This document shows positions 1 to 10,517 of a stretch of 10,517 nucleotides of DNA, piece by piece. The notes under the pieces are model-generated. The model saw only the letters and a program-made list of their open reading frames with translations. It was not told where the DNA came from and searched no databases. A program made the position numbers and the translations under genes. The DNA lies in the IMG/VR virus record IMGVR_UViG_2585427755_000006; one strand, written 5' to 3'. This DNA comes from a virus (Duplodnaviria > Heunggongvirae > Uroviricota > Caudoviricetes). Every line of letters starts with the position of its first letter. The stretch's first letter is position 1.

Positions 1-91
1 TAGACTGGCCCCCTGAATCTCCAGACAACCAATATCACTTAAATAAGTGATAGTCTTAATACTAGTTTTTAGACTAGTCATTGGAGAGCAG

Positions 92-457
92 ATGATTGAT
101 GTCTTAGGACCGGAGAAACGCAGACGGCGTACTACACAGGAAAAGATCGCTATTGTTCAGCAGAGTTTTGAACCGGGAATGACGGTCTCCCTTGTTGCCC
201 GGCAACACGGTGTGGCAGCCAGCCAGTTATTTCTCTGGCGCAAGCAATACCAGGAGGGAAGTCTTACTGCTGTGGCCGCAGGAGAGCAGGTCGTTCCTGC
301 CTCTGAACTTGCTGCTGCCATGAAGCAGATTAAAGAACTCCAGCGCCTGCTCGGCAAAAAAACGATGGAAAATGAACTCCTTAAAGAAGCCGTTGAATAC
401 GGGCGTGCAAAAAAGTGGATAGCGCACGCGCCCTTATTGCCCGGGGATGGGGAGTAA
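92..457 (+). CDS. insC: IS2 transposase OrfA (InsC), 121 aa, HTH DNA-binding
   Basis: ATG at 92 after GGAGAG RBS. Translation [40 protein letters not shown]... matches recalled InsC. The track ORF from 47 is an upstream GTG extension. Confidence 0.9.
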
Positions 458-1320
458 GCTTAGTCAGCCGTTGTCTCCGGGTGTCGCGTGCGCAGTTGCA
501 CGTAATTCTCAGACGAACCGATGACTGGAAAGATGGTCGCCGCAGCCGTCACTCAGATGATACGGATGTGCTTCTCCGTATACACCATGTTATCGGAGAG
601 CTGCCCACGTATGGTTATCGTCGGGTATGGGCGCTGCTTCGCAGACAGGCCGAACTTGATGGTATGCCTGCGATCAATGCCAAACGTGTTTACCGGATCA
701 TGCGCCAGAATGCGCTGTTGCTTGAGCGAAAAACCGCTGTACCGCCATCGAAACGGGCACATACTGGCAAAGTGGCCGTGAAAGAAAGCAATCAACGATG
801 GTGCTCTGACGGGTTCGAGTTCCGCTGTGATAACGGAGAAAAACTGCGAGTCACGTTCGCGCTGGACTGCTGTGACCGTGAGGCACTGCACTGGGCAGTC
901 ACTACGGGCGGCTTCGACAGTGAAACAGTACAGGACGTAATGCTGGGAGCGGTGGAACGCCGCTTCGGCAACGAGCTTCCGGCGTCTCCAGTAGAGTGGC
1001 TGACGGATAATGGTTCATGCTACCGGGCTAATGAAACACGGCAGTTTGCCCGGATGTTGGGGCTTGAACCGAAGAACACGGCGGTGCGGAGTCCGGAGAG
1101 TAACGGCATAGCAGAGAGCTTCGTGAAAACGATAAAGCGTGACTACATCAGTATCATGCCTAAACCAGACGGGTTAACGGCAGCAAAGAACCTTGCAGAG
1201 GCGTTCGAGCATTATAACGAATGGCATCCGCATAGTGCACTGGGTTATCGCTCGCCACGGGAATATCTGCGGCAGCAGGCCAGTAATGGGTTAAGTGATA
1301 ACAGGTGTCTGGAAATATAG
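415..1320 (+). CDS. insD: IS2 transposase OrfB (InsD), 301 aa, DDE catalytic domain; expressed as InsCD fusion by -1 frameshift
   Basis: Translation [23 protein letters not shown]...NRCLEI matches recalled InsD. Overlaps insC in the -1 frame with slippery CAAAAAAG at 408-415. Confidence 0.9.
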
Positions 1321-1658
1321 GGGCAAATCCACATCCCTTCAATTATACCCTCAGCCTTCTGTAACCTTTTCCCGATATAACCATCAGAGCAGCAATGCTT
1401 ACCTGCCAGTGACATGAATGTCATACCGACTACATAATAATCTACTAATAAATCGTGCAAATCGCTGTTGTTCTTTTTCAGACGGGCCATGCACCCGCAA
1501 ATGATCATCGCGTCATCGTCACAACATTGCGGGCGAGATTTTACTTTTGAAGGAATTAATCCCTTAAAACCGGCGGCAATGGACGACCAGGTCACATCTT
1601 CATGATTATTAGCCGCCCACGCTCCCCAACGCTCAAGAACCATCTGAATATCACGCAT
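1245..1658 (-). pseudogene. quuD: Q-family antiterminator quuD, C-terminally truncated by IS2; first 109 codons intact (1332-1658) then 28 IS2-derived codons to stop at 1245
   Basis: ATG at 1656-1658 with GGAG RBS. Translation [26 protein letters not shown]...KAEGIIEGM matches recalled K-12 QuuD to residue 109. The next codon TGG is the first base of the IS2 right end (1331). The track's MWSKL start is an in-frame TTG and was rejected. Confidence 0.7.
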
Positions 1659-1743
1659 CAACTTACTCCACAAAAATCAGACCAGAACGCCAATTACAAG
1701 CAAAAATCAATAAAACAGTATTAGTTGATTGTTATCTCTGACT

Positions 1744-1884
1744 TCATACTCCTGCTCCTGTCAGGGTTTTGGCGTAATTCCTCAGTATTCGGTAATCGGT
1801 CAAAACAGAACTGGGGAAACGATATAAGCGCAGGCGCATCCAGCGGTGGCGAAGAAGTTCTGCCATATTAAACTCAAACATCAT
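1744..1884 (-). CDS. ylcG: Small DLP12-type protein YlcG (46 aa)
   Basis: Hand translation [49 protein letters not shown] overlaps the rusA stop (ATGA). Below the track's length cutoff. Confidence 0.55.
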
Positions 1885-2243
1885 TCATTCCCCATTTCGG
1901 TGATGGTCAGTTCCAGCCTCCCACCTTTGGTAACAGGCATCTTCACAACGCGGTAATCAACGACCTGAGCATCATCCAGCCAGAAACCTGCTTTAGTGAG
2001 TGCGTCAAAAGCGGCTTTTTGCAGATTATCCAGGTCACGGCGACGGCGATCCGGCATGTGGCACTCAATGCGGATTTTCACAGGCATAGCCAGGCCGATA
2101 TCCAGCATTGCGTTTTTAATGATTCGGGCGACGTTATCGCGGTATGCCTGCCCCTCTGCGCTGACGTGCGTGCGCCCGCGATTATGGCGGTAATAGCGAT
2201 TATTGCTCGGAGGCCAGGGTAATGTGATGCTGTAGGTATTCAC
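1881..2243 (-). CDS. rusA: Holliday junction resolvase RusA (120 aa)
   Basis: Translation [41 protein letters not shown]... matches recalled RusA. GTG start overlaps ybcO stop (GTGA). Confidence 0.9.
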
Positions 2244-2530
2244 GCCTTAATAACCCCCTCTTTCAGCCAGATAACCTGTGTTCTCGCCATACCTTCCAGC
2301 GCGCATTCTTTTGCATACTCAGCATCGACAAAATGTGTGCGGCGGTCGATTTCGTCGTGACAGGCAGAACATGCGATGGTGGCAATCAGGTCTGGCGGTT
2401 TGATACCGGTACCGCACAATCCAGCCAGCCGGATATGTGCCAGTACAGACGTTTCAGAATTGCCATTACATACGCCAGGGATTCTTACCTGGCATTCCCG
2501 ACCACGCGCTGCTTTTCTCAAATCAGCCAT
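2240..2530 (-). CDS. ybcO: YbcO, DUF1364 phage protein (96 aa)
   Basis: Translation [38 protein letters not shown]...; ATG at 2528-2530 lies inside the ninE 3' end. The track ORF is extended upstream to 2569. Confidence 0.8.
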
Positions 2531-2693
2531 GATTCCTCCTTGCTGCCAGTCGCAACCATTTTTTATCAACCAGGCTGGCGGTATATCCGAGCAGAGTTGG
2601 TATTTCGGATGGCTTCAGCTCAGGTTTACGCTTACGACGATTTGGTACTTTGTAGATGTGTCCGTTCATGACACGAATAAGCGGTGTAGCCAT
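2523..2693 (-). CDS. ninE: NinE (56 aa)
   Basis: Hand translation [59 protein letters not shown] overlaps ybcN stop (TAATG). Below the track cutoff. Confidence 0.75.
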   Translation of the reverse strand: MATPLIRVMNGHIYKVPNRRKRKPELKPSEIPTLLGYTASLVDKKWLRLAARRNHG

Positions 2694-3148
2694 TACGCCT
2701 CCTGCTTGTCGCGCAGCAGCTGGAACTCGCAGCTCTGCGGAATAGTCAGGTGGCAGCCAATATTCATCGCCCAGGCTTCAACCTTACACAGGAAGACATA
2801 CATCTCTCCGGTATCGAGATCGGAGGTATGACGTAATGACTGAATGGTGGTGATTTCACCGGTTACGACATCAACCAGTTCTTTGGTTTCATAACCGAGA
2901 TAAGTGTGTTTGAGAGCATCTTTTACCCAAGCTGGAGTGGCGAACGTTTTACCCCTGCTGATGAGGTATTCACTGATTTCGCTGTACCACATGTGGCTGA
3001 GTGCATTCTGGGAAAGACTGCGTCTCTCGCGCCATGGTTTAAGCACCATGCGAAAGCATTTGCCGTCCTCCAGATAAGGCTGGATCTGCCGACCGATAGA
3101 GGTGAAGTTACCGCGATGCAGTTTGATGCCATCTTGTGGGAAGTTCAC
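2693..3148 (-). CDS. ybcN: YbcN (151 aa), lambdoid nin-region protein
   Basis: Translation [35 protein letters not shown]... matches recalled YbcN. GTG start at 3146-3148 behind a GGAGGTGA Shine-Dalgarno. Confidence 0.85.
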
Positions 3149-3246
3149 GCTTCACCTCCGCAGAGATCAAACGCTGGATGCAAGATATCGCAGGTGCATT
3201 TCTGCATCTGTGAAGGGAGAAGATAGTTTGGATTGTATGTGCGCAT
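3145..3246 (-). CDS. ylcH: Small protein YlcH-like (33 aa)
   Basis: Hand translation [33 protein letters not shown]. Stop overlaps ybcN GTG (GTGA). GGGGA RBS 5 nt upstream of ATG at 3244-3246. Matches the 33-aa ylcH slot upstream of ybcN in K-12. Confidence 0.5.
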
Positions 3247-3342
3247 AAACGTCCCCGTTTAGCGCAGAAGTCACCGGAGTTGTTCAAGCTCCAATGGCAT
3301 GATTATGGCTGGTTGATTATGGGAAATCAAATGTGCTGAAAA

Positions 3343-3849
3343 TTAGTCTGCCAAGTCTTCCTCAGTCACAACTGGGTAATTCCAAATATCAAAAAAAGCT
3401 ATAGCCTCCTGCCATTTGTTCCATAAATTATCAAGTACTTGTGTAGGTTCCGTACTTTTAAAAACAGAATCAGCCGCATCACCGTTATGAACTTCCTCGT
3501 ACAGTTCCATTATTAGCAGATTAACAAAGTACTGTTTCAACATTAATGCCTGATTACCTTCTTTCTGCTGGCTATCCTGCTTGATGATCTCCATCGCCCG
3601 TACCAGGCACCTGATGATATCCGCTGCATCATTAACGCTCCATTCAGATCCGCGCTTATCTGTAGCTGATGTATTGGCTCTCTCAGCGCAAGCCTTTAAA
3701 GACTCATAAAGGTAAACTCTATTTTGTAGCTGCAGCGCTTTTTTTGACGTGTACCAACTTGCAAGCGCCGACCCCGCTGCGGCTAATGTGCCAAACGCAG
3801 AAATGCCTGCTGCTATTGCACTTAAGTCGGCACTGTCAAAGTTCCACAT
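3343..3849 (-). CDS. Hypothetical 168-aa protein with a single predicted N-terminal transmembrane helix (AIAAGISAFGTLAAAGSALASWY) and an acidic C-terminal domain; no recognised family
   Basis: Clean ORF with ATG at 3847-3849 and AAGGTG RBS. Looks lower in GC than the flanking nin genes (by eye). Sits where K-12 DLP12 has ybcL/ybcM. Confidence 0.7.
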   Translation of the reverse strand: MWNFDSADLSAIAAGISAFGTLAAAGSALASWYTSKKALQLQNRVYLYESLKACAERANTSATDKRGSEWSVNDAADIIRCLVRAMEIIKQDSQQKEGNQALMLKQYFVNLLIMELYEEVHNGDAADSVFKSTEPTQVLDNLWNKWQEAIAFFDIWNYPVVTEEDLAD

Positions 3850-3881
3850 TATCGTTACACCTTATATAAATACCCCTCAGT

Positions 3882-3910
3882 AATATCCAATAAGGTATGT
3901 GAACAATCAA
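3882..3910 (-). promoter_or_regulatory. Candidate sigma70 promoter for the 168-aa gene (-35 TTGATT, 17-bp spacer, -10 GATATT)
   Basis: Minus-strand TTGATTGTTCACATACCTTATTGGATATT about 35 bp upstream of the ATG, directly downstream of the terminator at 4026-4068. Confidence 0.3.
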
Positions 3911-4025
3911 TATAATTTTATCCGTATCGGCACATAGCGATTTGAATGCTACTGGTAATGGTGTCTTTTAGATTATTTCGTCCAGTTTACAGCACCCGTA
4001 TTTTATGAAATGGACTCGCACATTA

Positions 4026-4068
4026 CCCCAAAAAATGCCAGCACTTCCGTCATCGTAGAATGCTGGCA
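4026..4068 (-). terminator. Rho-independent terminator after the 107-aa gene
   Basis: Inverted repeat TGCCAGCA (4036-4043) / TGCTGGCA (4061-4068) followed on the minus strand by TTTTTT (plus-strand A-run 4030-4035), about 20 bp past the stop at 4088. Confidence 0.5.
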
Positions 4069-4087
4069 GTATTTCTAACTAGTGACT

Positions 4088-4411
4088 TTATTGCAACAGA
4101 TTCTGACGGAAATATGGTAACACTCGACTCCACTTATCATCCAGCCACGGCTGGAATTTTACATGTGCCGTTTCTCTGGCGAGGATTGCTCGCGCTCTGG
4201 TGAGTATCTGGGGATATTCTTGCTCGATGGAAGTGAAGCGACCAGCTTCACGATGCTCCGCAACCTGAAGAAGGGGAGTAACGTTCTGGCAGGCGGTTAA
4301 CATCGCATCCCCTGCTCGCCATAACCAGGCGAGTGTGCAAAGTTCGTTATCAGTGAATTGTTTTGTGATTGGGAATTGTTGAACTGCTAGAACGAGAACG
4401 CCAGCATCCAT
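4088..4411 (-). CDS. Hypothetical 107-aa soluble protein; no recognised family
   Basis: ORF MDAGVLVLAVQQFPITKQFTDNELCTLAWLWRAGD... with ATG at 4409-4411 and GGGA RBS. Flanked by its own candidate extended -10 promoter and its own terminator. Confidence 0.65.
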   Translation of the reverse strand: MDAGVLVLAVQQFPITKQFTDNELCTLAWLWRAGDAMLTACQNVTPLLQVAEHREAGRFTSIEQEYPQILTRARAILARETAHVKFQPWLDDKWSRVLPYFRQNLLQ

Positions 4412-4488
4412 TGGCAGTCCCTATAGTAAAACCATAGCTCAGGACGCTTCGTTCAGGATAGATAATTTTATTGTACTTACCTAACTTT

Positions 4489-4500
4489 CTTACTATAGCA
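4489..4500 (-). promoter_or_regulatory. Candidate extended -10 promoter (TGcTATAGT) for the 107-aa gene
   Basis: Minus-strand TGCTATAGT (plus 4492-4500) about 80 bp upstream of the ATG. The -35 is weak, as is common for extended -10 promoters. Confidence 0.3.
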
Positions 4501-4522
4501 CGGTTGAAAAAGTGATTATTAC

Positions 4523-6049
4523 TCAAAAATAAACCTCACCATCAACCATATATTTGAGAGTACTTATCGCCTGCTGGGCGGATATTGTTTTCATTAAAGG
4601 ATAGTGTTTAAAAACAATGCCATTCATAAAATAGATATCACAGGTTTTATTATCTGTATTGATTATGATTTTTTCGAATGTTTTATAGGCAAGTGTACGA
4701 CATAGCTCTCGCCCATTTTTACTGGTTAAGTCAATAGCATGAAAATCACCAAGTGAACTCACCGCTTTACTCTTCAAAGTTTTTAATGATACCGAAGCCC
4801 TTCGTAATTCCTTATCTAATACTCTGATTTTTTCTGCTATAGCGGTAACTTCAGGCGCAACAGATAATGCAGCAATTAAATTATTAATTTTCATCTGGAG
4901 CTCAATAATTTTCAACTCTAAAGTTTCATTAGCATCTTTCTTGTTTTCAACTGGTTGGATTTTGCTACAATTAAAAAGCAACTCATTAATGATATTATAA
5001 TCAACCAAATCTCTCTTTATTGATGGCCTGTCACATCGATGCAGTCTTCTCATCGGACAAACATAATAGCCATGCAAACTTCCAGATACCGCATGAATAA
5101 TCATGGTATTACCACAAGCCTCGCACTTCATAACTGTTCGAAGTAGATTTATCAACATAGGATTTTTGCTACTATTGCTAATACCAAAAGGTGCCAACCG
5201 AATTTCCTGCACAGCGTAAAACAAATCATCTGATATGACTCTGGGATAATAGCCAGCGATTTCACTTATTCCTTTACCTCTTGCACGATATGAAGGTACG
5301 CATATACCTATCAGAGCTTTATTCGCTAATAATTTTTCAATTACAGAAGGCCCCCATGCACTTTCTTTTCCTGAGAAATTTTTTACAGCATGATCATTTA
5401 AATACTTGGCTATTGCATTCAATGAGCGCCTTTCCATCCTGAGTTTAAAAATTAGCTCAATAGTTTTCACCCTGTCGGGGTCTGGAACAAAAGCCGTTCT
5501 TTTGTCATCTAAGGATAGCCATCTAGGACAAGACGCCGTCATAATCGTACCTGATTCCAGTGCATCCTGCCGTTTTTTCTTCCATGATAATTTAACCCGA
5601 CTTGACTTTATCTCGCTTTCTTCATTTGCCCTTTGTGCTATAAGTATGGCTTTTATTAATGAATATGGCTCATTCAAAGAGTCAATATTATAGACTGTAT
5701 TGTCGCAAAGAGTTATAACATCAATACCGTGATTCAAAATCAATTTCAGACGTTCAATCGCTTCACCGACTTTTTCTCTTGAAAGCCTGTCCAGACTTTC
5801 AACTAACAATGTAGTTCCTGGCAATATATAACCATGCTCTATAGCATCTAAAAATTCCGAAAAAGCTCCTGATTGTGCATGCTTTCCTTTGAATGCACTT
5901 AATCCTAAATCTTCATATGTTATGGTATCAAGATAATAATCACTATTTACCTTTAACCATTCAGCAATAAGTCTTCTCTGTCGGTTTAATGAGTCGCCAG
6001 ACATCTGACCTGGTGATGAAAATCGCATATATGCTATGGCTTTTTTCAT
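4523..6049 (-). CDS. ybcK: Large serine recombinase YbcK (508 aa)
   Basis: N-terminal resolvase-type catalytic motif AYMRFSSPGQ, C-terminal cysteine cluster CEACGNTMIIH...YYVCPMRRLHRCD, and a match to recalled K-12 YbcK. AGGTG RBS. AT-rich. Confidence 0.9.
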   Translation of the reverse strand: MKKAIAYMRFSSPGQMSGDSLNRQRRLIAEWLKVNSDYYLDTITYEDLGLSAFKGKHAQSGAFSEFLDAIEHGYILPGTTLLVESLDRLSREKVGEAIERLKLILNHGIDVITLCDNTVYNIDSLNEPYSLIKAILIAQRANEESEIKSSRVKLSWKKKRQDALESGTIMTASCPRWLSLDDKRTAFVPDPDRVKTIELIFKLRMERRSLNAIAKYLNDHAVKNFSGKESAWGPSVIEKLLANKALIGICVPSYRARGKGISEIAGYYPRVISDDLFYAVQEIRLAPFGISNSSKNPMLINLLRTVMKCEACGNTMIIHAVSGSLHGYYVCPMRRLHRCDRPSIKRDLVDYNIINELLFNCSKIQPVENKKDANETLELKIIELQMKINNLIAALSVAPEVTAIAEKIRVLDKELRRASVSLKTLKSKAVSSLGDFHAIDLTSKNGRELCRTLAYKTFEKIIINTDNKTCDIYFMNGIVFKHYPLMKTISAQQAISTLKYMVDGEVYF

Positions 6050-6230
6050 GGTGACACCTGCTAACGTATGTTTTTATAAACCTTAGTGGTGAGATATAAT
6101 TTTTGTTTAATTTTTATTTAAAAAGACAATTAAGGTCACATTATCTTGAATATACAACAATAATCGTATTGCAATTTTCTTACACCATAATCTTGAAAGC
6201 ACAAAAGAATACATAAAAAAAATAAAGACA

Positions 6231-6276
6231 TTAACAAAAAGCATAAAACGAGGCTCATATAAATATAAGAGCCTCC
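6231..6276 (-). terminator. Rho-independent terminator downstream of emrE
   Basis: GAGGCTC (6250-6256) / GAGCCTC (6269-6275) stem with a 12-nt AU loop, followed on the minus strand by GTTTTATGCTTTTTGTT. Confidence 0.4.
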
Positions 6277-6306
6277 ATATTTTAGTCGTTTAGAAACAAA
6301 TTATTT

Positions 6307-6639
6307 TTAATGTGGTGTGCTTCGTGACAATAAATTAATAACCAACACTCCGGCACAAATCAACATCATGCCTATAATGGCTGGCATGTCCAGCCGTTGG
6401 CCGAAAAATCCCCATGACAGTAAGCTAATCAGGACAATACCGACTCCTGACCAGATAGCATAAGCAATCCCTGTAGGAATATAAGCCAGCGTCTGCGCTA
6501 ATAACCAGAATGATGCACAATAACAAATAATTGTACCAACAGATGGCCATAACCGTGTAAAACCTTCTGAAAACTTCATTAAGGTTGTACCAATGACCTC
6601 TGCAAGTATTGCACCACCAAGATAAATATAAGGGTTCAT
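6307..6639 (-). CDS. emrE: SMR-family multidrug efflux transporter EmrE (110 aa, 4 TM helices)
   Basis: Translation MNPYIYLGGAILAEVIGTTLMKFSEGFTRLWPSVG... matches recalled EmrE. The track ORF carries an 18-codon upstream extension. Confidence 0.9.
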   Translation of the reverse strand: MNPYIYLGGAILAEVIGTTLMKFSEGFTRLWPSVGTIICYCASFWLLAQTLAYIPTGIAYAIWSGVGIVLISLLSWGFFGQRLDMPAIIGMMLICAGVLVINLLSRSTPH

Positions 6640-6654
6640 AGCATATTCTTTCCT

Positions 6655-6689
6655 GTTCAAACTGGAGAGAATTGTACTACAGTTTGAAC
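6655..6689. repeat. Perfect 10-bp inverted repeat GTTCAAACTG/CAGTTTGAAC with a 15-nt spacer, between the ren stop and emrE start
   Basis: Read directly from the sequence at 6655-6664 and 6680-6689. Ends about 16 nt before the emrE ATG. No T-tract, so not a terminator. Confidence 0.5.
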
Positions 6690-6706
6690 TCAACTCACCT
6701 GTTTCA

Positions 6707-7009
6707 TCATTGTGTACCCATTGATGTTCTTTTATATACCCTCAATACCCGTTTCATCGCGGCACTCTGGCGACACTCCTTAAAAATCAGATTCGTGCTC
6801 ACCTTTCCTTCCCGTTCTTCTCTGGTAGCGAACCGGTAATACACCGTTCGCCAGACCTTACCATCAACGACCAGGATTCCTGCCCGCGCCATTTTAGCCG
6901 CAGCCTGATTTATGCTGGTTACGGTTGCGCCTGTTACCGCGGCAACGTCCTGTGCACAGAAGCTCTTATGCGTCCCCAGGTAATGAATAATTGCCTCTTT
7001 GCCCGTCAT
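6707..7009 (-). CDS. renD: Lambda Ren-like protein (100 aa)
   Basis: Translation MTGKEAIIHYLGTHKSFCAQDVAAVTGATVTSINQAAAKMARAG... matches recalled lambda Ren. ATG overlaps an upstream in-frame stop (ATGA), as at the lambda P/ren junction. Confidence 0.8.
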   Translation of the reverse strand: MTGKEAIIHYLGTHKSFCAQDVAAVTGATVTSINQAAAKMARAGILVVDGKVWRTVYYRFATREEREGKVSTNLIFKECRQSAAMKRVLRVYKRTSMGTQ

Positions 7010-7104
7010 ACACTTGCTCCTTTCAGTCCGAACTTAGCTTTAATTTCTGCGATCTTCGCCAGAGCCTGTGCACGATTTAGAGGTTTAGGCGCAATCACTT
7101 TCGT
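7006..7104 (-). pseudogene. Probable 3' remnant of replication gene P (last ~32 codons)
   Basis: Minus-strand frame open from 7104 to the stop at 7006-7008, translating ...TKVIAPKPLNRAQALAKIAEIKAKFGLKGASV*. No start codon; an in-frame TAG sits at 7105-7107. Assignment to P is from the lambda P-ren gene order and coupling, not from a verified match. Confidence 0.4.
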
Positions 7105-7213
7105 CTACTCCGTTACAAAGCGAGGCTGGGTATTTCCCGGCCTTTCTGTAATCCGAAATCCCCTGAAAGCACAGCGGCTGGCTGAGGAGATAAATAATAA
7201 ATGGGGGGGCTGT

Positions 7214-7405
7214 ATGCACAAAGCATCTACCGTTAAGTTAAGAACGAGTATCGAGATGGCACATAGCCTCGCTCAAATTGGAGTCAGGTTTGTGCCAATA
7301 CCAGTAGAAACAGACGAAGAATTTCACACGTTAGCCGCATCCCTTTCACAAAAGCTGGAAATGATGGTGGCGAAAGCAGAAGCAGATGAGAGAGACCAGG
7401 TATGA
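7214..7405 (+). CDS. Small 63-aa protein, lambda exo-xis orf63-like by position and size
   Basis: ATG at 7214 behind a GGGGGGG Shine-Dalgarno. Translation MHKASTVKLRTSIEMAHSLAQIGVRFVPIPVETDEEFHTLAASLSQKLEMMVAKAEADERDQV. First in a coupled chain of small genes. Confidence 0.6.
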   Translation: MHKASTVKLRTSIEMAHSLAQIGVRFVPIPVETDEEFHTLAASLSQKLEMMVAKAEADERDQV

Positions 7406-7485
7406 CAACCACTGAATGCATTTTTCTGGCAGCGGGCTTCATATTCTGTGTGCTTATGCTTGCCGACATGGGACTTGTTCAATGA
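7402..7485 (+). CDS. Possible 27-aa hydrophobic micro-protein (MTTTECIFLAAGFIFCVLMLADMGLVQ)
   Basis: ATG overlaps the stop of the upstream gene (ATGA) and its own stop overlaps the next ATG (ATGA). One predicted TM helix. No independent support. Confidence 0.3.
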   Translation: MTTTECIFLAAGFIFCVLMLADMGLVQ

Positions 7486-7697
7486 CACCTCAGCAGGAAA
7501 ACGCCCTTCGCAGCATTGCCCGTCAGGCTAATTCTGAAATCAAAAAAGCCAGACAGCAGTTTCCGGATAAAAACGTCGATGACATTTGCCGTAGCGTACT
7601 GAAGAAGCACCGCGAAACGGTAACGCTGATGGGATTCACACCGACTCATTTAAGCCTGGCAATCGGCATGTTAAACGGCGTCTTTAAGGAACGATGA
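7482..7697 (+). CDS. Small 71-aa protein, lambda exo-xis orf61-like by position
   Basis: Translation MTPQQENALRSIARQANSEIKKARQQFPDKNVDDICRSVLKKHRETVTLMGFTPTHLSLAIGMLNGVFKER. The track ORF is extended upstream to 7416. Confidence 0.55.
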   Translation: MTPQQENALRSIARQANSEIKKARQQFPDKNVDDICRSVLKKHRETVTLMGFTPTHLSLAIGMLNGVFKER

Positions 7698-7789
7698 ACA
7701 TGAAAAGCAAAATCATCAGGGAGCTACAGGCTCCTTTTTTATTATTCGCATTCACCCTCAAGCGTATTAACCAACAATTCAGGGATTAA
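7694..7789 (+). CDS. Possible 31-aa micro-ORF (MNMKSKIIRELQAPFLLFAFTLKRINQQFRD)
   Basis: ATG overlaps the upstream stop (ATGA). Fills the gap before the TraR-like gene. Could be chance. Confidence 0.2.
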   Translation: MNMKSKIIRELQAPFLLFAFTLKRINQQFRD

Positions 7790-7795
7790 TGGAAG

Positions 7796-8017
7796 ATGGC
7801 AGACATCATTGATTCAGCATCAGAAATTGAAGAATTACAGCGCAACACAGCAATAAAAATGCGCCGCCTGAACCACCAGGCTATATCTGCCACTCATTGT
7901 TGTGAGTGTGGCGATCCGATAGATGAACGAAGACGCCTGGTCGTTCAGGGTTGTCGGACTTGTGCAAGTTGCCAGGAAGATCTGGAGCTTATCAGTAAAC
8001 AGAGAGGTTCGAAGTGA
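7796..8017 (+). CDS. TraR/DksA-family C4 zinc-finger protein (73 aa), lambda orf73-like
   Basis: CCECGDPIDERRRLVVQGCRTCASCQ gives a C-x2-C...C-x2-C zinc finger after an acidic N-terminal helix, typical of TraR-like RNA polymerase secondary-channel binders. Size and position match lambda orf73. Confidence 0.75.
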   Translation: MADIIDSASEIEELQRNTAIKMRRLNHQAISATHCCECGDPIDERRRLVVQGCRTCASCQEDLELISKQRGSK

Positions 8018-8316
8018 GCGAAATTAACTCTCAGGCACTGCGTGAAGCGGCAGAGCAGGCAATGCATGACGACTGGGGATTTGACGCAGACCTTTTCCAT
8101 GAATTGGTAACACCATCGATTGTGCTGGAACTGCTGGATGAGCGGGAAAGAAACCAGCAATACATCAAACGCCGCGACCAGGAGAACGAGGAAATTGCGC
8201 TAACGGTAGGAAAGCTGCGCGTTGAGCTGGAAGCAGCAAAATCAAAACTCAACGAGCAGCGTGAATATTACGAAGGTGTTATCTCGGATGGAAGTAAGCG
8301 TATTGCTGAACTGTAG
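8014..8316 (+). CDS. Ead/Ea22-like protein (100 aa, coiled-coil C-terminus)
   Basis: GTG start overlapping the upstream stop (GTGA). Translation MSEINSQALREAAEQAMHDDWGFDADLFHELVTPSIVLELLDERERNQQYIKRRDQENEE... matches a recalled Ea22-like family. Confidence 0.55.
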   Translation: MSEINSQALREAAEQAMHDDWGFDADLFHELVTPSIVLELLDERERNQQYIKRRDQENEEIALTVGKLRVELEAAKSKLNEQREYYEGVISDGSKRIAEL

Positions 8317-8566
8317 GCCTAGGTTGAATGTACAAGATTTGCATACGTAAGAGCAAAAGACAAGGGAGAATTGATCAGAGTTATTACCTGCCAACCAACG
8401 GGATATTACGCTTACGTACCATGTAACTAGGAATCCTTGAAGTGGCAGCCTAACTGTGGATACACTGAAATGGCGATTTGGTAACATGTTTCGCACAAGG
8501 CTGTTACTACGCTTAGAGATAATCAGTCATGATTAAATGCTTTGTAAAAAGTAAAAGGAAATTACA

Positions 8567-9181
8567 ATGAAAAAATCAACACTAATTTTAGGGCTTACGT
8601 TAATTGTCTCATCTCAAATACCATCGGCAATGGCAAAAAATGAATCAAAACTTTGGGTTGTTGTTGATCGAACGGAAAGACATACCTGCCCTTCAAGTAA
8701 ATGTGGAGTGGCTGGGAAACTATTTTTCAGGGAAGGCGTAGATTTTCTAGAAAAAAAAGGTGAATGGGTTCGTATAACTGAGCCATATTCAGCCTCATGT
8801 GTGGGAGGGGAAAGCGAATATATTAAAGAAGGTAATAAATCCTGCACAAGAAAAAACGGAATCGTTAATGGCAAGTTTTCAGAATGGGTTAAACTTAGTG
8901 ATCTTAGCAGTGAAAGGCCATCAGATCCTGCTGAAAATGCGAGCAGAAATGATACCTTAATCAAAGGATCTGATGACTACCGTATATACAAAAAAGAGTT
9001 TTCTTCGGCAGCTAGGAAGTTAATAAGTGAAGGTGTCTGCACGGAGAGCGATTTTAAGGAAGTTGGAGGGTGGATGGCATCAAGCAATAAGGGTGAAAAC
9101 ATCTATTTCACATATTGCGGAGGAATGACGTTGTCGAACAGAATATATCTAGACGTTAAAAGTGGAAAGACTTTTAGATAA
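8567..9181 (+). CDS. Secreted/periplasmic hypothetical protein (204 aa) with cleavable signal peptide and an SH3b-like N-terminal region
   Basis: Signal peptide MKKSTLILGLTLIVSSQIPSAMA with AxA cleavage motif. The stretch LWVVVDRTERHTCPSSKCGVAGKLFFREGVDFLEKKGEWVRI resembles a bacterial SH3 fold. Six cysteines. AAGGAAA RBS. Lies in the AT-rich island. Confidence 0.7.
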   Translation: MKKSTLILGLTLIVSSQIPSAMAKNESKLWVVVDRTERHTCPSSKCGVAGKLFFREGVDFLEKKGEWVRITEPYSASCVGGESEYIKEGNKSCTRKNGIVNGKFSEWVKLSDLSSERPSDPAENASRNDTLIKGSDDYRIYKKEFSSAARKLISEGVCTESDFKEVGGWMASSNKGENIYFTYCGGMTLSNRIYLDVKSGKTFR

Positions 9182-9252
9182 TATGATATTACCAATGACA
9201 GCATTAATTTAATGCCTCCATAGAATTATCTCTAGGAAGTAAGTATAAGAAA

Positions 9253-9289
9253 AGTCCGCACAATGAGCTGCTGCGGGCTTTGTGTTATT
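9253..9289 (+). terminator. Candidate rho-independent terminator after the secreted-protein gene
   Basis: AGTCCGCA (9253-9260) / TGCGGGCT (9272-9279) stem with one G-U pair and an 11-nt loop, followed by TTGTGTTATT. Confidence 0.4.
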
Positions 9290-9474
9290 CGCCATATTTT
9301 ATGAAGCAAATACGACACTATAGATAATTAAGCGTTACTGGTTGTCGATTCCTCACTCATTCCTGCTGATGGCTGTCTTCTTGTATGTGTCATTGAAGGG
9401 TAATATCGCGTAAAAAGATACCGGAAGTATCCGCGCCGCTATGATTGTCTTTCTCCTGATGCAGGAAAAGCAGA

Positions 9475-9813
9475 ATGACTAAATCAGCAGCAGAGCGCAA
9501 AGCCGATCAGAGAGCCAAGCAAGCATCATCCGGTATGCGTAAGCTGGAGCTTGTACTTGATGCTCAGGAAATTGAAATGCTGGAGCGTAACTGAGCCACG
9601 CGCCGCTTCAGGCGTGCGCCTTACGAGTTTGGTGAGTACATAGCGTTACTGAGCCGCCAGGATGATGCACGTGTGCGCTGGCGTATAAAATCGATTAGCA
9701 GAAAACGTTGCCGTAAGTGCGGCGAGAGAGTTCCTGTTAATTCATGCCCGTGTAATGGTGACTCACAATACTGGGTGACCAAAGGCTGGCACGAAACAAA
9801 ATTAATGATATAA
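9475..9813 (+). pseudogene. 112-codon reading frame interrupted by one in-frame TGA (9592-9594): 39-aa N-terminal part plus 72-aa C-terminal part with a zinc-ribbon motif
   Basis: ATG at 9475 gives MTKSAAERKADQRAKQASSGMRKLELVLDAQEIEMLERN, then TGA, then the same frame continues ATRRFRRAPYEFGEYIALLSRQDDARVRWRIKSISRKRCRKCGERVPVNSCPCNGDSQYWVTKGWHETKLMI*. No ATG in the second part; an internal GTG at 9673 is the only alternative start. Confidence 0.45.
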
Positions 9814-9841
9814 ATCTCTGTGACATGTCACGGAGGCGGCA

Positions 9842-10270
9842 ATGAAATTAGACCAGCAATATCTAAAAGATCTACTTATCGCATTCGAAAAAACTTATGG
9901 CCCTGACACGATGCTTAGTGAACTAGAGGATAATGGCTTTAATAGATATGACCAAAATTTTATTTTCCATATGCGATTATTATGTGACTACGAATTAATA
10001 GTTAGGGTTGATGGAAAACCTGGGTTCGGTCATATAATGTCCAACGAGTTAGGGGAAGGTGTTGAATATAGTTGGCTCGAAGTACCACTGAGGTTGACAG
10101 CAAGAGGGCATGATTTTATTGCTGACTTACGTCAAAAGGAGGTCTGGCAAGCTATAAAAACAAACTTTAAGGATGAGGGAATTGGTACTCTTATGAGTGT
10201 TTCAAAATCACTAGCAAAAGGCTTTGCAAGAAAAAAAATAAAAGATATTACAGGAATAGATATTGAATAA
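9842..10270 (+). CDS. Hypothetical 142-aa protein, prophage cargo, no confirmed family
   Basis: ATG at 9842 with GGAGG RBS (cacGGAGGcggcaATG). Clean AT-rich ORF ending 36 bp before the IS911-like terminus. Confidence 0.7.
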   Translation: MKLDQQYLKDLLIAFEKTYGPDTMLSELEDNGFNRYDQNFIFHMRLLCDYELIVRVDGKPGFGHIMSNELGEGVEYSWLEVPLRLTARGHDFIADLRQKEVWQAIKTNFKDEGIGTLMSVSKSLAKGFARKKIKDITGIDIE

Positions 10271-10306
10271 TTCTTAGCATAAAGCAACTACTGCCTTTGG
10301 TGAAAA

Positions 10307-10517
10307 TGAAGTGGTTTACTGAATTTGGCCACCTGAACAGAGGTGATATGCTCACCTCAGAACAACACAGGTGCCATAATGAAAAAAAGAAATTTCAGCG
10401 CAGAGTTTAAACGCGAATCCGCTCAACTGGTCGTTGACCAGAATTACACCGTGGCAGATGCAGCCAGCGCTATGGATGTCGGCCTTTCCACAATGACGCG
10501 ATGGGTGAAACAATTAC
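10307..10517 (+). mobile_element. Left end of an IS3-family insertion sequence closely related to IS911 (partial, runs off the window)
   Basis: Terminus TGAAGTGGTTTACTGAATTTGGCCACC resembles the IS911 left inverted repeat TGAAGTGGTCAACAAAAACTGGCCACC, followed by an IS911-type orfA. Confidence 0.8.
10379..10517 (+). CDS. IS3-family transposase OrfA (IS911 InsN-like), N-terminal 46 codons only
   Basis: Translation [46 protein letters not shown] matches recalled IS911 OrfA apart from a few substitutions. AGGTG RBS. Confidence 0.85.

What the first reader, a model, noticed from the sequence alone, without database searches (positions are those of the whole stretch)
7006..7213. Deletion junction: tail of P fused near the exo-xis small-gene block, with the whole immunity/replication/recombination region missing
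Upstream of ren the minus strand still reads like the last ~32 codons of P, but the frame hits a stop at 7105-7107 with no start codon. About 110 bp further on, plus-strand exo-xis-like genes begin at 7214. In lambda these two regions are separated by roughly 8 kb (exo, bet, gam, kil, cIII, N, rex, cI, cro, cII, O and most of P). The prophage therefore cannot replicate or control immunity on its own.
Basis: partly seen in the sequence, partly recalled or inferred. Interest (0 to 1): 0.4.

Follow-up and report, generated by a model that had tools for sequence, protein, structure and literature searches.

The report
Prophage deletion joint at TA hotspot
This is the scar of an ~8.9-kb deletion that disabled a lambda-like prophage by fusing the last 26 codons of replication gene P to a truncated orf60a. 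That is ordinary prophage decay, but the orf60a end of the scar is one exact TA dinucleotide reused in at least 16 different deletions in E. coli prophages, including DLP12 of K-12.

Summary
These abut a 5'-truncated, frameshifted orf60a/DUF1317 (7088-7241, plus strand) at a shared TA (7086-7087). The supposed 110-bp spacer and the stop at 7105-7107 are orf60a sequence. Relative to lambda, 8,880 bp are missing, from exo through most of P.

The identical junction is contiguous in 3 of 5,426 complete E. coli genomes.

An unexpected result is that the orf60a-side end (lambda 31322-31323) is nucleotide-identical in 16 different junction types. Partners include O, P, ren, Dam, ybcN, ybcO, lysozyme, tail fibre, Mu-like baseplate, xisD and intD. 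All 17 reconstructable parent sites carry TA at the crossover, and 11 of 17 read TA-CC. A neighbouring GGGTA control site gave no junctions. K-12 DLP12 carries two such TA junctions.

I infer a sequence-directed break-and-join at TA, followed by selection for prophage inactivation. The enzyme is unknown. As a deletion scar the finding is ordinary, but I found no description of the hotspot.

The parts
6707..7009 (-). ren, intact (100 aa)
   Evidence: ORF list. blastx gives 90% identity to lambda Ren residues 1-92. PGAP names it 'protein ren' in the identical genome.
7006..7087 (-). P' remnant: the last 26 codons of replication protein P plus its stop. The stop overlaps the ren start, as in lambda.
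   Evidence: Translation. blastn to lambda 40202-40386 at 96%. blastx to P 208-233 at 96%. PGAP calls it 'replication protein P, incomplete, missing N-terminus'.
7086..7087 (.). TA crossover dinucleotide, the deletion breakpoint. It is shared by both parents: lambda P 40202-40203 and lambda orf60a 31322-31323.
   Evidence: The two blastn blocks overlap at 7086-7087, confirmed by alignments A1 and A2. The same orf60a nucleotide is the end of 16 junction types.
7088..7241 (+). orf60a' (DUF1317) pseudogene. It lacks codons 1-10 and its start codon, and is frameshifted near its 3' end.
   Evidence: blastn to lambda 31323-31110 at 95%. Pfam DUF1317 profile positions 11-48 of 60, E 4e-23. PGAP calls it 'DUF1317 family protein, frameshifted'.
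7205..7211 (+). G7 run carrying one extra G relative to lambda and all relatives. This frameshift puts orf60a' in frame with orf63.
   Evidence: Alignment A2, where the window is the only sequence with the extra G, and the blastn gap.
7214..7405 (+). orf63 (DUF1382), intact
   Evidence: Pfam DUF1382 E 5e-29. 94% identity to lambda Orf63.
6968..7405 (+). Accidental 145-aa chimeric ORF. It consists of 39 aa of antisense ren/P, then Orf60a residues 11-48, then WGGC, then all of Orf63.
   Evidence: ORF list and protein alignment A3. No promoter-like site lies nearby, so expression is unknown.
7485..8316 (+). Rest of the exo-xis block: an orf61-like gene (7485-7697), an orf73-type TraR/DksA zinc finger (7796-8017) and a truncated ea22 (8014-8316).
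   Evidence: Pfam zf-dskA_traR and Ead_Ea22. PGAP annotation of the identical genome.
4523..6049 (-). ybcK, an intact large serine recombinase. It is context only and an untested candidate enzyme.
   Evidence: Pfam Resolvase + Recombinase + Zn_ribbon_recom.
1881..2243 (-). rusA Holliday-junction resolvase. It is context only and an untested lead, because RusA cuts 5' of CC.
   Evidence: Pfam RusA E 7e-23. Cleavage preference from PMC1636454.

Best explanation
Shown: positions 7006-7241 are a prophage-killing deletion scar, P'(26 codons)-TA-orf60a'(codons 11-60, frameshifted). It removed about 8.9 kb of a lambda-like prophage, covering recombination, immunity and replication genes.

Shown: the junction formed at a TA present in both parents. 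Its orf60a end is a nucleotide-precise recurrent endpoint, used with at least 16 different partners in lambdoid prophages at several chromosomal sites. The P-208 end is also reused. Partner sites always carry TA, usually as (T)TA-CC.

Inferred: the junction was made by a sequence-directed break-and-join with a 2-bp register at TA. That would be a recombinase-, transposase- or nuclease-type activity working on a preferred site in orf60a and on weaker quasi-sites elsewhere, rather than random illegitimate recombination. Lysogens carrying such deletions were then retained because they had lost the lethal early region. The extra G came later and fused orf60a' to orf63.

The enzyme is not identified.
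For: Scar and size.

Immunity and replication genes are absent from the whole element.

Fixed end: alignment A2 and the IMG/VR, metagenome and RefSeq census. This gave 14 partner positions that keep the orf60a side: O-223, O-254, P-33, P-208, ren-25, a non-lambda replication gene, L151, Dam, ybcN, a nin region, ybcO, lysozyme, tail fibre and Mu-like baseplate. It gave 2 that keep the exo side: xisD (this is K-12) and intD.

TA is at the crossover in 17 of 17 reconstructed parent sites (P about 1e-21). CC follows TA in 11 of 17 (P about 7e-9).

Control: a GGGTA site 45 bp away gave 0 junctions in the same kind of scan, against 8 junction types at the hotspot.

The same P-208 x orf60a junction occurs in a clearly diverged P/ren allele (L130). 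EC50's internal P deletion also starts at P-208.

K-12's exoD|peaD junction is also a TA junction with TA-CC.

Annealing-type end joining predicts partners resembling TA-GG, but only 3 of 17 have G after TA.
Against: No enzyme, recognition site or reaction intermediate has been identified. Beyond TA-CC the partner sites share no extended motif, so why the orf60a TA is so much hotter than other GGTA sites is unexplained. The intact site is not dyad-symmetric and sits only in a weak, non-significant hairpin.

A palindromic 2-bp core should also allow inversions, and none was seen. However, the scans would have caught them only as junctions with sense-oriented partners.

Some identical junctions may be shared by descent.

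For the window itself I cannot exclude a two-step history from a KFu019/EC50-like ancestor.
Confidence: 0.6

Rival explanations
1. A one-off random illegitimate (short-homology) deletion between P and orf60a. On this view the junction has no special sequence basis and the position is chance.
For: Such junctions exist in the same region. STECUZB006's P'|exo' junction rests on an ordinary 7-bp microhomology, GAATCCC. Two-bp microhomology is common in E. coli illegitimate recombination (general knowledge).
Against: The same orf60a nucleotide is the endpoint with 16 different partners. The P-208 end recurs in three events. Several other TA dinucleotides lie within 15 bp (GATAATAT) and are never used. 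The GGGTA control site 45 bp away gave 0 junctions. CC enrichment at partner sites has P about 7e-9.
Confidence: 0.05
2. A two-step (nested) origin. An ancestor already carried the O'|orf60a' junction seen in DLP12 of KFu019. A later 758-bp deletion (or 244 bp from an EC50-like state) then removed P and O' up to the old junction.
For: The window equals KFu019 minus KFu 3386-4143. The ren flank is 99.7% identical. EC50's deletion starts at the same P position. Window T7085 matches the O-derived T next to KFu019's junction, where other P alleles have C.
Against: It requires a second deletion ending within 1 nt of the first junction. The orf60a flank of the window is lambda-like (GCAATCAC, with 97% identity to KFu019 against 99.7% on the ren side). 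It continues into a lambda-type xis/int at attB-lambda, not intD at argU. L130 has the same junction with C at that position in another allele, so T7085 is more simply a later substitution.
Confidence: 0.15
3. IS-anchored deletions. An insertion sequence once sat at the orf60a TA and generated adjacent deletions or IEE-type 'IS plus flank' excisions. It left no IS behind.
For: IS3-family elements abound here: the window ends, K-12 ren and FORC064. An IS629-like element lies 10 bp from the site in L088. IEE with a transposase gives IS loss with extended deletions at 2-4 bp microhomologies.
Against: No locus among more than 130 has an IS at the TA itself. Scans for foreign DNA after ...CCGGGTA or before TAGGCGC... 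returned only deletion junctions. The L088 IS is at a different position. This model needs two rare steps in each of 16 events. No inverted copy of the terminus exists downstream.
Confidence: 0.1
4. Structure-driven replication slippage. The inverted repeats CCGG(G)TA and TACC(G)G pair on single-stranded DNA, and the polymerase slips between the flanking TA direct repeats.
For: In junctions that keep the orf60a side, the deleted segment has TA-CC...GG-TA inverted termini flanked by TA. This is the geometry known for palindrome-stimulated deletions (general knowledge). Only deletions are seen, no inversions.
Against: The stems would be only 4-7 bp with loops of 0.2 to more than 30 kb. In junctions that keep the exo side the inverted repeats lie outside the deleted segment. 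The local hairpin is weak (dG -6 kcal/mol, z -1). This does not explain why one GGTA is preferred over its neighbour.
Confidence: 0.1

Closest known systems
DLP12 cryptic prophage of E. coli K-12 (xisD-exoD-peaD-renD region)
   Same: The right arm is the same: ren-emrE-ylcJ-ybcK...ybcN-ninE-ybcO-rusA-ylcG-quuD. The early region between P and the exo-xis block is also lost. K-12's two junctions are also TA junctions. One uses the very same orf60a TA (ATATCCGGG-TA-CCTCAC). The other, exoD|peaD, reads ACTCG-TA-CCTCCCGGG.
   Different: K-12 keeps 312 nt of P and 279 nt of exo plus orf60a codons 1-10, and has lost orf60a'-orf63...xis. The window keeps 26 P codons and orf60a'-orf63-orf61-orf73. The window's relatives sit at attB-lambda with a lambda-type int/xis, not at argU with intD. 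ybcL/ybcM are replaced by other genes.
Identical annotated locus in RefSeq genomes (E. coli 1409 NZ_CP063369, ET358, OY754353)
   Same: 100% identity over the junction and over window 1331-10307. PGAP already labels the P fragment and the frameshifted DUF1317.
   Different: Those genomes lack the IS3 copy in quuD and the ISEc52 at the window's right end. The annotation says nothing about the junction or its recurrence.
Quasi-site recombination by serine recombinases (Cin at quasi-cix sites; TnpX/TndX with GA-flanked ends). Recalled from memory, not tested.
   Same: One preferred site recombines with many weakly related sites. The only strict requirement is identity of a central 2-bp crossover. 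The junctions are nucleotide-precise.
   Different: No recombinase has been linked to the site. The orf60a site lacks dyad symmetry. Only deletions are seen. TA is palindromic, which is unusual for directional serine systems.
Nick-site-anchored deletions at rolling-circle origins (M13, pC194). Recalled from memory.
   Same: One fixed endpoint at an enzyme's cleavage site. The other endpoint falls at short sequences resembling it. Only deletions result.
   Different: No HUH or Rep protein and no origin is known at orf60a. Here both sides of the site can be retained.
IEE/IS629-mediated genomic deletions in EHEC (bioRxiv 10.1101/2023.06.07.543989; PMC9943667)
   Same: Deletions with 2-4 bp microhomology junctions that can leave no IS behind.
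   Different: These require an IS at the anchored end, and none is found at the TA.

Membership tests
Lambda replication protein P (remnant) | Sequence similarity to the P C-terminus, directly upstream of ren with overlapping stop and start (ATGA) | tested here: met
   P 208-233 at 96% aa identity. 96% nt identity to lambda 40202-40386. The stop at 7006-7008 overlaps the ren ATG at 7007-7009.
Lambda replication protein P (remnant) | A complete, startable ORF (233 codons) | tested here: not met
   Homology ends at 7087. There is no start codon, and the frame runs into antisense orf60a and stops at 7105-7107. It is a pseudogene fragment.
DUF1317 / lambda orf60a | A match to the Pfam DUF1317 profile above the gathering score | tested here: met
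   81.4 bits against a cut-off of 22.3, but only profile positions 11-48 of 60.
DUF1317 / lambda orf60a | An intact reading frame with its own start codon | tested here: not met
   The first 10 codons and the ATG are deleted. A +1 G lies at 7205-7211. PGAP marks it 'frameshifted'.
DLP12 cryptic prophage | The characteristic right-arm gene set: ren-emrE-ybcK...rusA-quuD | tested here: met
   ORFs and Pfam. Annotation of the identical genome. Comparison with K-12.
DLP12 cryptic prophage | Integration at argU with the intD integrase | tested here: not met
   In all three genomes with the identical sequence, the one examined lies between ybhB and ybhC with a 1071-nt lambda-type int and xis. The window itself does not reach the att sites.
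DLP12 cryptic prophage | K-12-type exoD|peaD junction (lambda 31627 | 39972) | tested here: not met
   The window's junction joins lambda 31322/3 to 40202/3.
Conservative site-specific recombination with a 2-bp crossover (serine-recombinase type) | An identical central dinucleotide in both parents and a nucleotide-precise junction | tested here: met
   TA in 17 of 17 reconstructed parents. All junctions are at the same nucleotide.
Conservative site-specific recombination with a 2-bp crossover (serine-recombinase type) | Recognisable half-sites of dyad symmetry flanking the core | tested here: inconclusive
   Only GG-TA / TA-CC is shared. No extended motif or dyad was found.
Conservative site-specific recombination with a 2-bp crossover (serine-recombinase type) | A cognate recombinase acting on the site | not testable with these tools
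   YbcK, a large serine recombinase, is intact in the window. Nothing links it to the site, and no copy of the site lies at the borders of its insert.
IS-mediated adjacent deletion | An insertion sequence retained at, or demonstrably once present at, the fixed endpoint | tested here: not met
   No IS lies at the TA in more than 130 loci. The IS629-like element in L088 is 10 bp away.
Random microhomology-mediated illegitimate recombination | Endpoints scattered, and microhomology resembling the retained end | tested here: not met
   The endpoint is fixed with 16 partners. The control site gave 0 junctions. Partners read TA-CC rather than TA-GG.

The most novel reading that the evidence does not exclude
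A single TA in codon 10 of lambda orf60a (lambda 31322-31323) is the preferred substrate of an unrecognised sequence-directed recombination or cleavage activity in E. coli. This activity joins the TA to (T)TA-CC quasi-sites elsewhere in the prophage. It is a major, mechanistically specific route by which lambdoid prophages, including DLP12 of K-12, are 'grounded'.
Probability: 0.4. Interest if true: 0.75.

Novelty: new variant of a known kind. Interest (0 to 1): 0.45.

Why it matters
As a deletion scar in a cryptic prophage, the feature is routine and already annotated as pseudogenes. What is not routine is that prophage inactivation here does not look like random decay. One exact dinucleotide is the endpoint of at least 16 independent deletions, ranging from about 8 kb to more than 30 kb. 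These occur in prophages at several chromosomal sites, and the partner sites share a short motif.

If an enzyme is responsible, it would be a defined mechanism for prophage domestication. It would be testable in lambda lysogens of K-12 by mutating the TA, deleting candidate genes and sequencing survivors of induction. It would also explain the structure of DLP12, a textbook cryptic prophage.

Tried and rejected
1. A TIR-bounded transposon covering the exo-xis block. No inverted copy of GGCGCRATCAC... exists in the window, and no remainder of P lies on the far side.
2. An IS at the hotspot. None was found. L088's IS629-like element is 10 bp off.
3. A structural hotspot. There is only a weak hairpin (dG -6 kcal/mol, z about -1).
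4. 'Any GGTA will do, plus selection'. The neighbouring GGGTA at lambda 31280 gave 0 junctions. The exo TACC at 31627 has only two known partners.
5. A link to the emrE-ybcK insert. There is no other copy of the site in the window.
6. RusA. Its 5'-CC cleavage preference was confirmed in the literature. However, it needs a four-way junction, and the strand geometry would give inversion-type junctions. I kept it only as a lead.
7. Motif resemblances recalled from memory (integron GTTRRRY core, Ter, KOPS, Vsr/Dcm contexts, IS1/IS5/IS30 ends, lambda att core). None fits all the junctions, and none was pursued.
8. Rfam. No hits in the window.
9. A genome-contig scan with the non-intact pattern found nothing, because there is only one genome per species.
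10. Literature searches found no prior description of the recurrent endpoint.

Full report
WHAT IS IN THE WINDOW

The window is a lambdoid prophage remnant read in the opposite sense to the lambda map. An IS3 copy (47-1320) interrupts quuD. Then come ylcG, rusA (1881-2243), ybcO, ninE, ybcN, two unnamed genes, ybcK (4523-6049), emrE (6307-6639) and ren (6707-7009), all on the minus strand. On the plus strand follow orf63 (7214-7405), an orf61-like gene, an orf73-type TraR/DksA zinc finger (7796-8017), a truncated ea22 and further small genes. The window ends in an ISEc52 element.

CHECKING THE OBSERVATION

The minus strand upstream of ren reads ...TKVIAPKPLNRAQALAKIAEIKAKFGLKGASV*.

- Window 6903-7087 matches lambda 40386-40202 at 96% (E 2e-85).
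- Window 7086-7300 matches lambda 31323-31110 at 95% (E 1e-96).

P homology therefore ends at 7087. Only P 208-233 plus the stop survive (blastx). From 7086 onward the sequence is orf60a, lacking its first 10 codons.

Its ~110-bp spacer is orf60a' itself (Pfam DUF1317, profile positions 11-48 of 60, E 4e-23). The two homology blocks overlap by TA at 7086-7087, and that is the breakpoint.

Relative to lambda, 8,880 bp are missing (31324-40203). This covers the start of orf60a, then exo, bet, gam, kil, cIII, ea10, ral, sieB, N, rexAB, cI, cro, cII, O and 207 codons of P.

One extra G in the run 7205-7211 is unique to this sequence among all those aligned. It shifts orf60a' into the orf63 frame. 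The result is an accidental 145-aa ORF (6968-7405) made of antisense ren/P, Orf60a 11-48 and Orf63. There is no promoter-like site at the junction and no Rfam match.

IS THE REST OF THE PROPHAGE ALSO DEFECTIVE?

A 96-bp probe across the junction is contiguous in only 3 of 5,426 complete E. coli genomes, plus one metagenome contig (L152). In strain 1409, PGAP already annotates 'replication protein P, missing N-terminus' and 'DUF1317, frameshifted' at exactly these positions.

That element lies between ybhB and ybhC, which is attB-lambda, with a lambda-type int/xis. It is about 19 kb and has no O, cI, cro, N or morphogenesis genes.

The element has a DLP12-type right arm but is not DLP12 in the strict sense, because it is not at argU with intD.

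COMPARISON WITH RELATIVES: AN UNEXPECTED REGULARITY

- DLP12 of strain KFu019 (at argU) has ren, a full P and the last 46 codons of O. These are fused to orf60a' at the same orf60a nucleotide.
- EC50 equals KFu019 minus 514 bp between two CTACC repeats. The left repeat is the P-208 position where the window's P tail ends.
- FG92-1 and FORC064 fuse P codon 33 to the same orf60a nucleotide, and BS74R-D fuses ren codon 25 to it.

Pattern scans of IMG/VR, metagenomes and the RefSeq hits added more partners. These are O-223, a non-lambda replication gene, L151, Dam methylase, ybcN, a nin region, ybcO, lysozyme R, a tail-fibre gene and a Mu-like baseplate gene. All of these partners are antisense, so each junction is a collinear deletion of about 8 to more than 30 kb.

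The site is two-sided. The exo side (...ATATCCGGG-TA) is kept and fused to xisD or to intD in DLP12 copies. The xisD version is K-12 MG1655 itself.

In total, 16 different partner positions share one TA.

L130 carries the P-208 x orf60a junction in a clearly diverged P/ren allele. The window's own junction type has therefore probably arisen more than once.

THE SEQUENCE RULE

For 17 parent sites the intact sequence could be reconstructed from other loci.

- All 17 have TA at the crossover, against a TA frequency of 0.058 in these arms (P about 1e-21).
- 11 of 17 read TA-CC (expected 8%, P about 7e-9).
- C occupies position +2 in 14 of 17.
- T occupies position -1 in 9 of 17.

On the other strand TA-CC reads GG-TA, like the orf60a site (CCGGG-TA-GGCGC).

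K-12's exoD|peaD junction obeys the same rule, although neither parent is the orf60a site. ACTCG-TA-AACC crossed with CCCGTT-TA-CCTCCC gave ACTCG-TA-CCTCCC. Strain 41 reuses that exo endpoint with ren.

Not every junction follows the rule. STECUZB006's P'|exo' junction is a plain 7-bp microhomology.

CONTROLS

- The neighbouring GGGTA, 45 bp away, gave only a SNP in intact phages and no junctions in the same kind of scan. The hotspot gave eight junction types.
- Other TA dinucleotides within 15 bp of the hotspot are never used.
- No locus has an IS at the TA.
- No inverted copy of the terminus lies downstream.
- The intact site lies only in a weak hairpin.
- No second copy of the site is present in the window.

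MECHANISM

Shown: the junction is a nucleotide-precise join at a shared TA. One end is a strong recurrent endpoint, and partner choice is biased to TA-CC.

Inferred: a sequence-directed break-and-join in a 2-bp register, followed by selection for loss of the lethal early region. The closest analogies are quasi-site recombination by serine recombinases, where identity of the central dinucleotide is the main requirement, and nick-site-anchored deletions at rolling-circle origins. Both are recalled from memory and neither was tested.

Annealing-type end joining does not fit, because partners should then resemble TA-GG. Hairpin-assisted slippage fits the geometry only of junctions that keep the orf60a side, and its stems would be 4-7 bp. 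IEE/IS629-type excision lacks the required IS.

Two recombination enzymes are encoded in the window: the intact large serine recombinase YbcK, and RusA, which cuts 5' of CC at junctions (PMC1636454). Neither is linked to the site by any evidence here.

For the window's own history, I favour a one-step deletion between P-208 and the orf60a TA. The orf60a arm is lambda-like, and L130 shows the same junction in another allele. A nested origin from a KFu019/EC50-like state cannot be excluded.

NOVELTY AND VERDICT

The finding as given is an ordinary prophage-decay scar. It is correctly interpreted, with its boundaries corrected here, and it is already annotated in RefSeq.

I could not find the recurrent TA endpoint and its partner motif described in the searchable literature. 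They would matter if an enzyme underlies them. Interest is moderate overall.

Noticed in passing
window 6968-7405 (+): The +1 G in the run 7205-7211 fuses the truncated orf60a in frame to orf63. This gives a 145-aa chimeric ORF that starts in antisense ren. It is unique to this lineage among the sequences aligned, and its expression is unknown.
   Followed up: partly
window 1-1330 and 10307-10517: Both ends of the window are IS3-family elements that are absent from the three complete genomes otherwise identical over 1331-10307. An IS3 (insE/insF-like ORFs at 47-1320) interrupts quuD, and an ISEc52 lies at the right end. The source strain is therefore a further relative.
   Followed up: partly
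L002/L153 (E. coli 1409, NZ_CP063369 1983.5-2002.2 kb): An emrE-ybcK-rusA 'DLP12-type' remnant sits at attB-lambda (ybhB/ybhC) with a lambda-type int/xis instead of at argU. A diguanylate cyclase gene lies next to ybhB. That genome has only one copy of the ren-orf63 segment.
   Followed up: partly
L142 (K-12 MG1655 566,072-566,378): Both internal junctions of K-12 DLP12 are TA junctions: xisD|orf60a(1-10)-exoD, and exoD|peaD. The first uses the same orf60a TA as the window. The exoD fragment is bounded by TA-CCTC on both sides.
   Followed up: yes
L003 vs L004 (EC50 vs KFu019, DLP12 at argU): EC50 differs from KFu019 by a 514-bp deletion inside P between two CTACC repeats. The left repeat is the same P-208 position used in the window's junction.
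   Followed up: yes
L088 (IMG/VR 651053023_000002), 10 bp upstream of the orf60a TA: An IS629/IS1203-like IS3-family element is inserted in orf60a between ...CACGATAAT and ATCCGGGTAGG. exo, bet and gam are intact upstream.
   Followed up: partly
window 7124-7155 (lambda ~31262-31290): An 8-bp G+C-rich hairpin (AGGCTGGG TATTT CCCGGCCT) followed by TTTCTGT lies inside orf60a, about 40 nt downstream of the hotspot (fold). From memory this is the lambda tL3 terminator. The simple terminator scan did not flag it.
   Followed up: no
window 6655-6690: A perfect 10-bp inverted repeat, GTTCAAACTG...CAGTTTGAAC, lies between the ren stop and the emrE start. It may be a terminator or the border of the emrE insert.
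   Followed up: no
window 3343-3849 (-) and 4088-4411 (-): In place of K-12's ybcL/ybcM/ylcH, this element carries a 168-aa hypothetical protein and a 107-aa 'P22AR C-terminal domain' protein (PGAP names).
   Followed up: no
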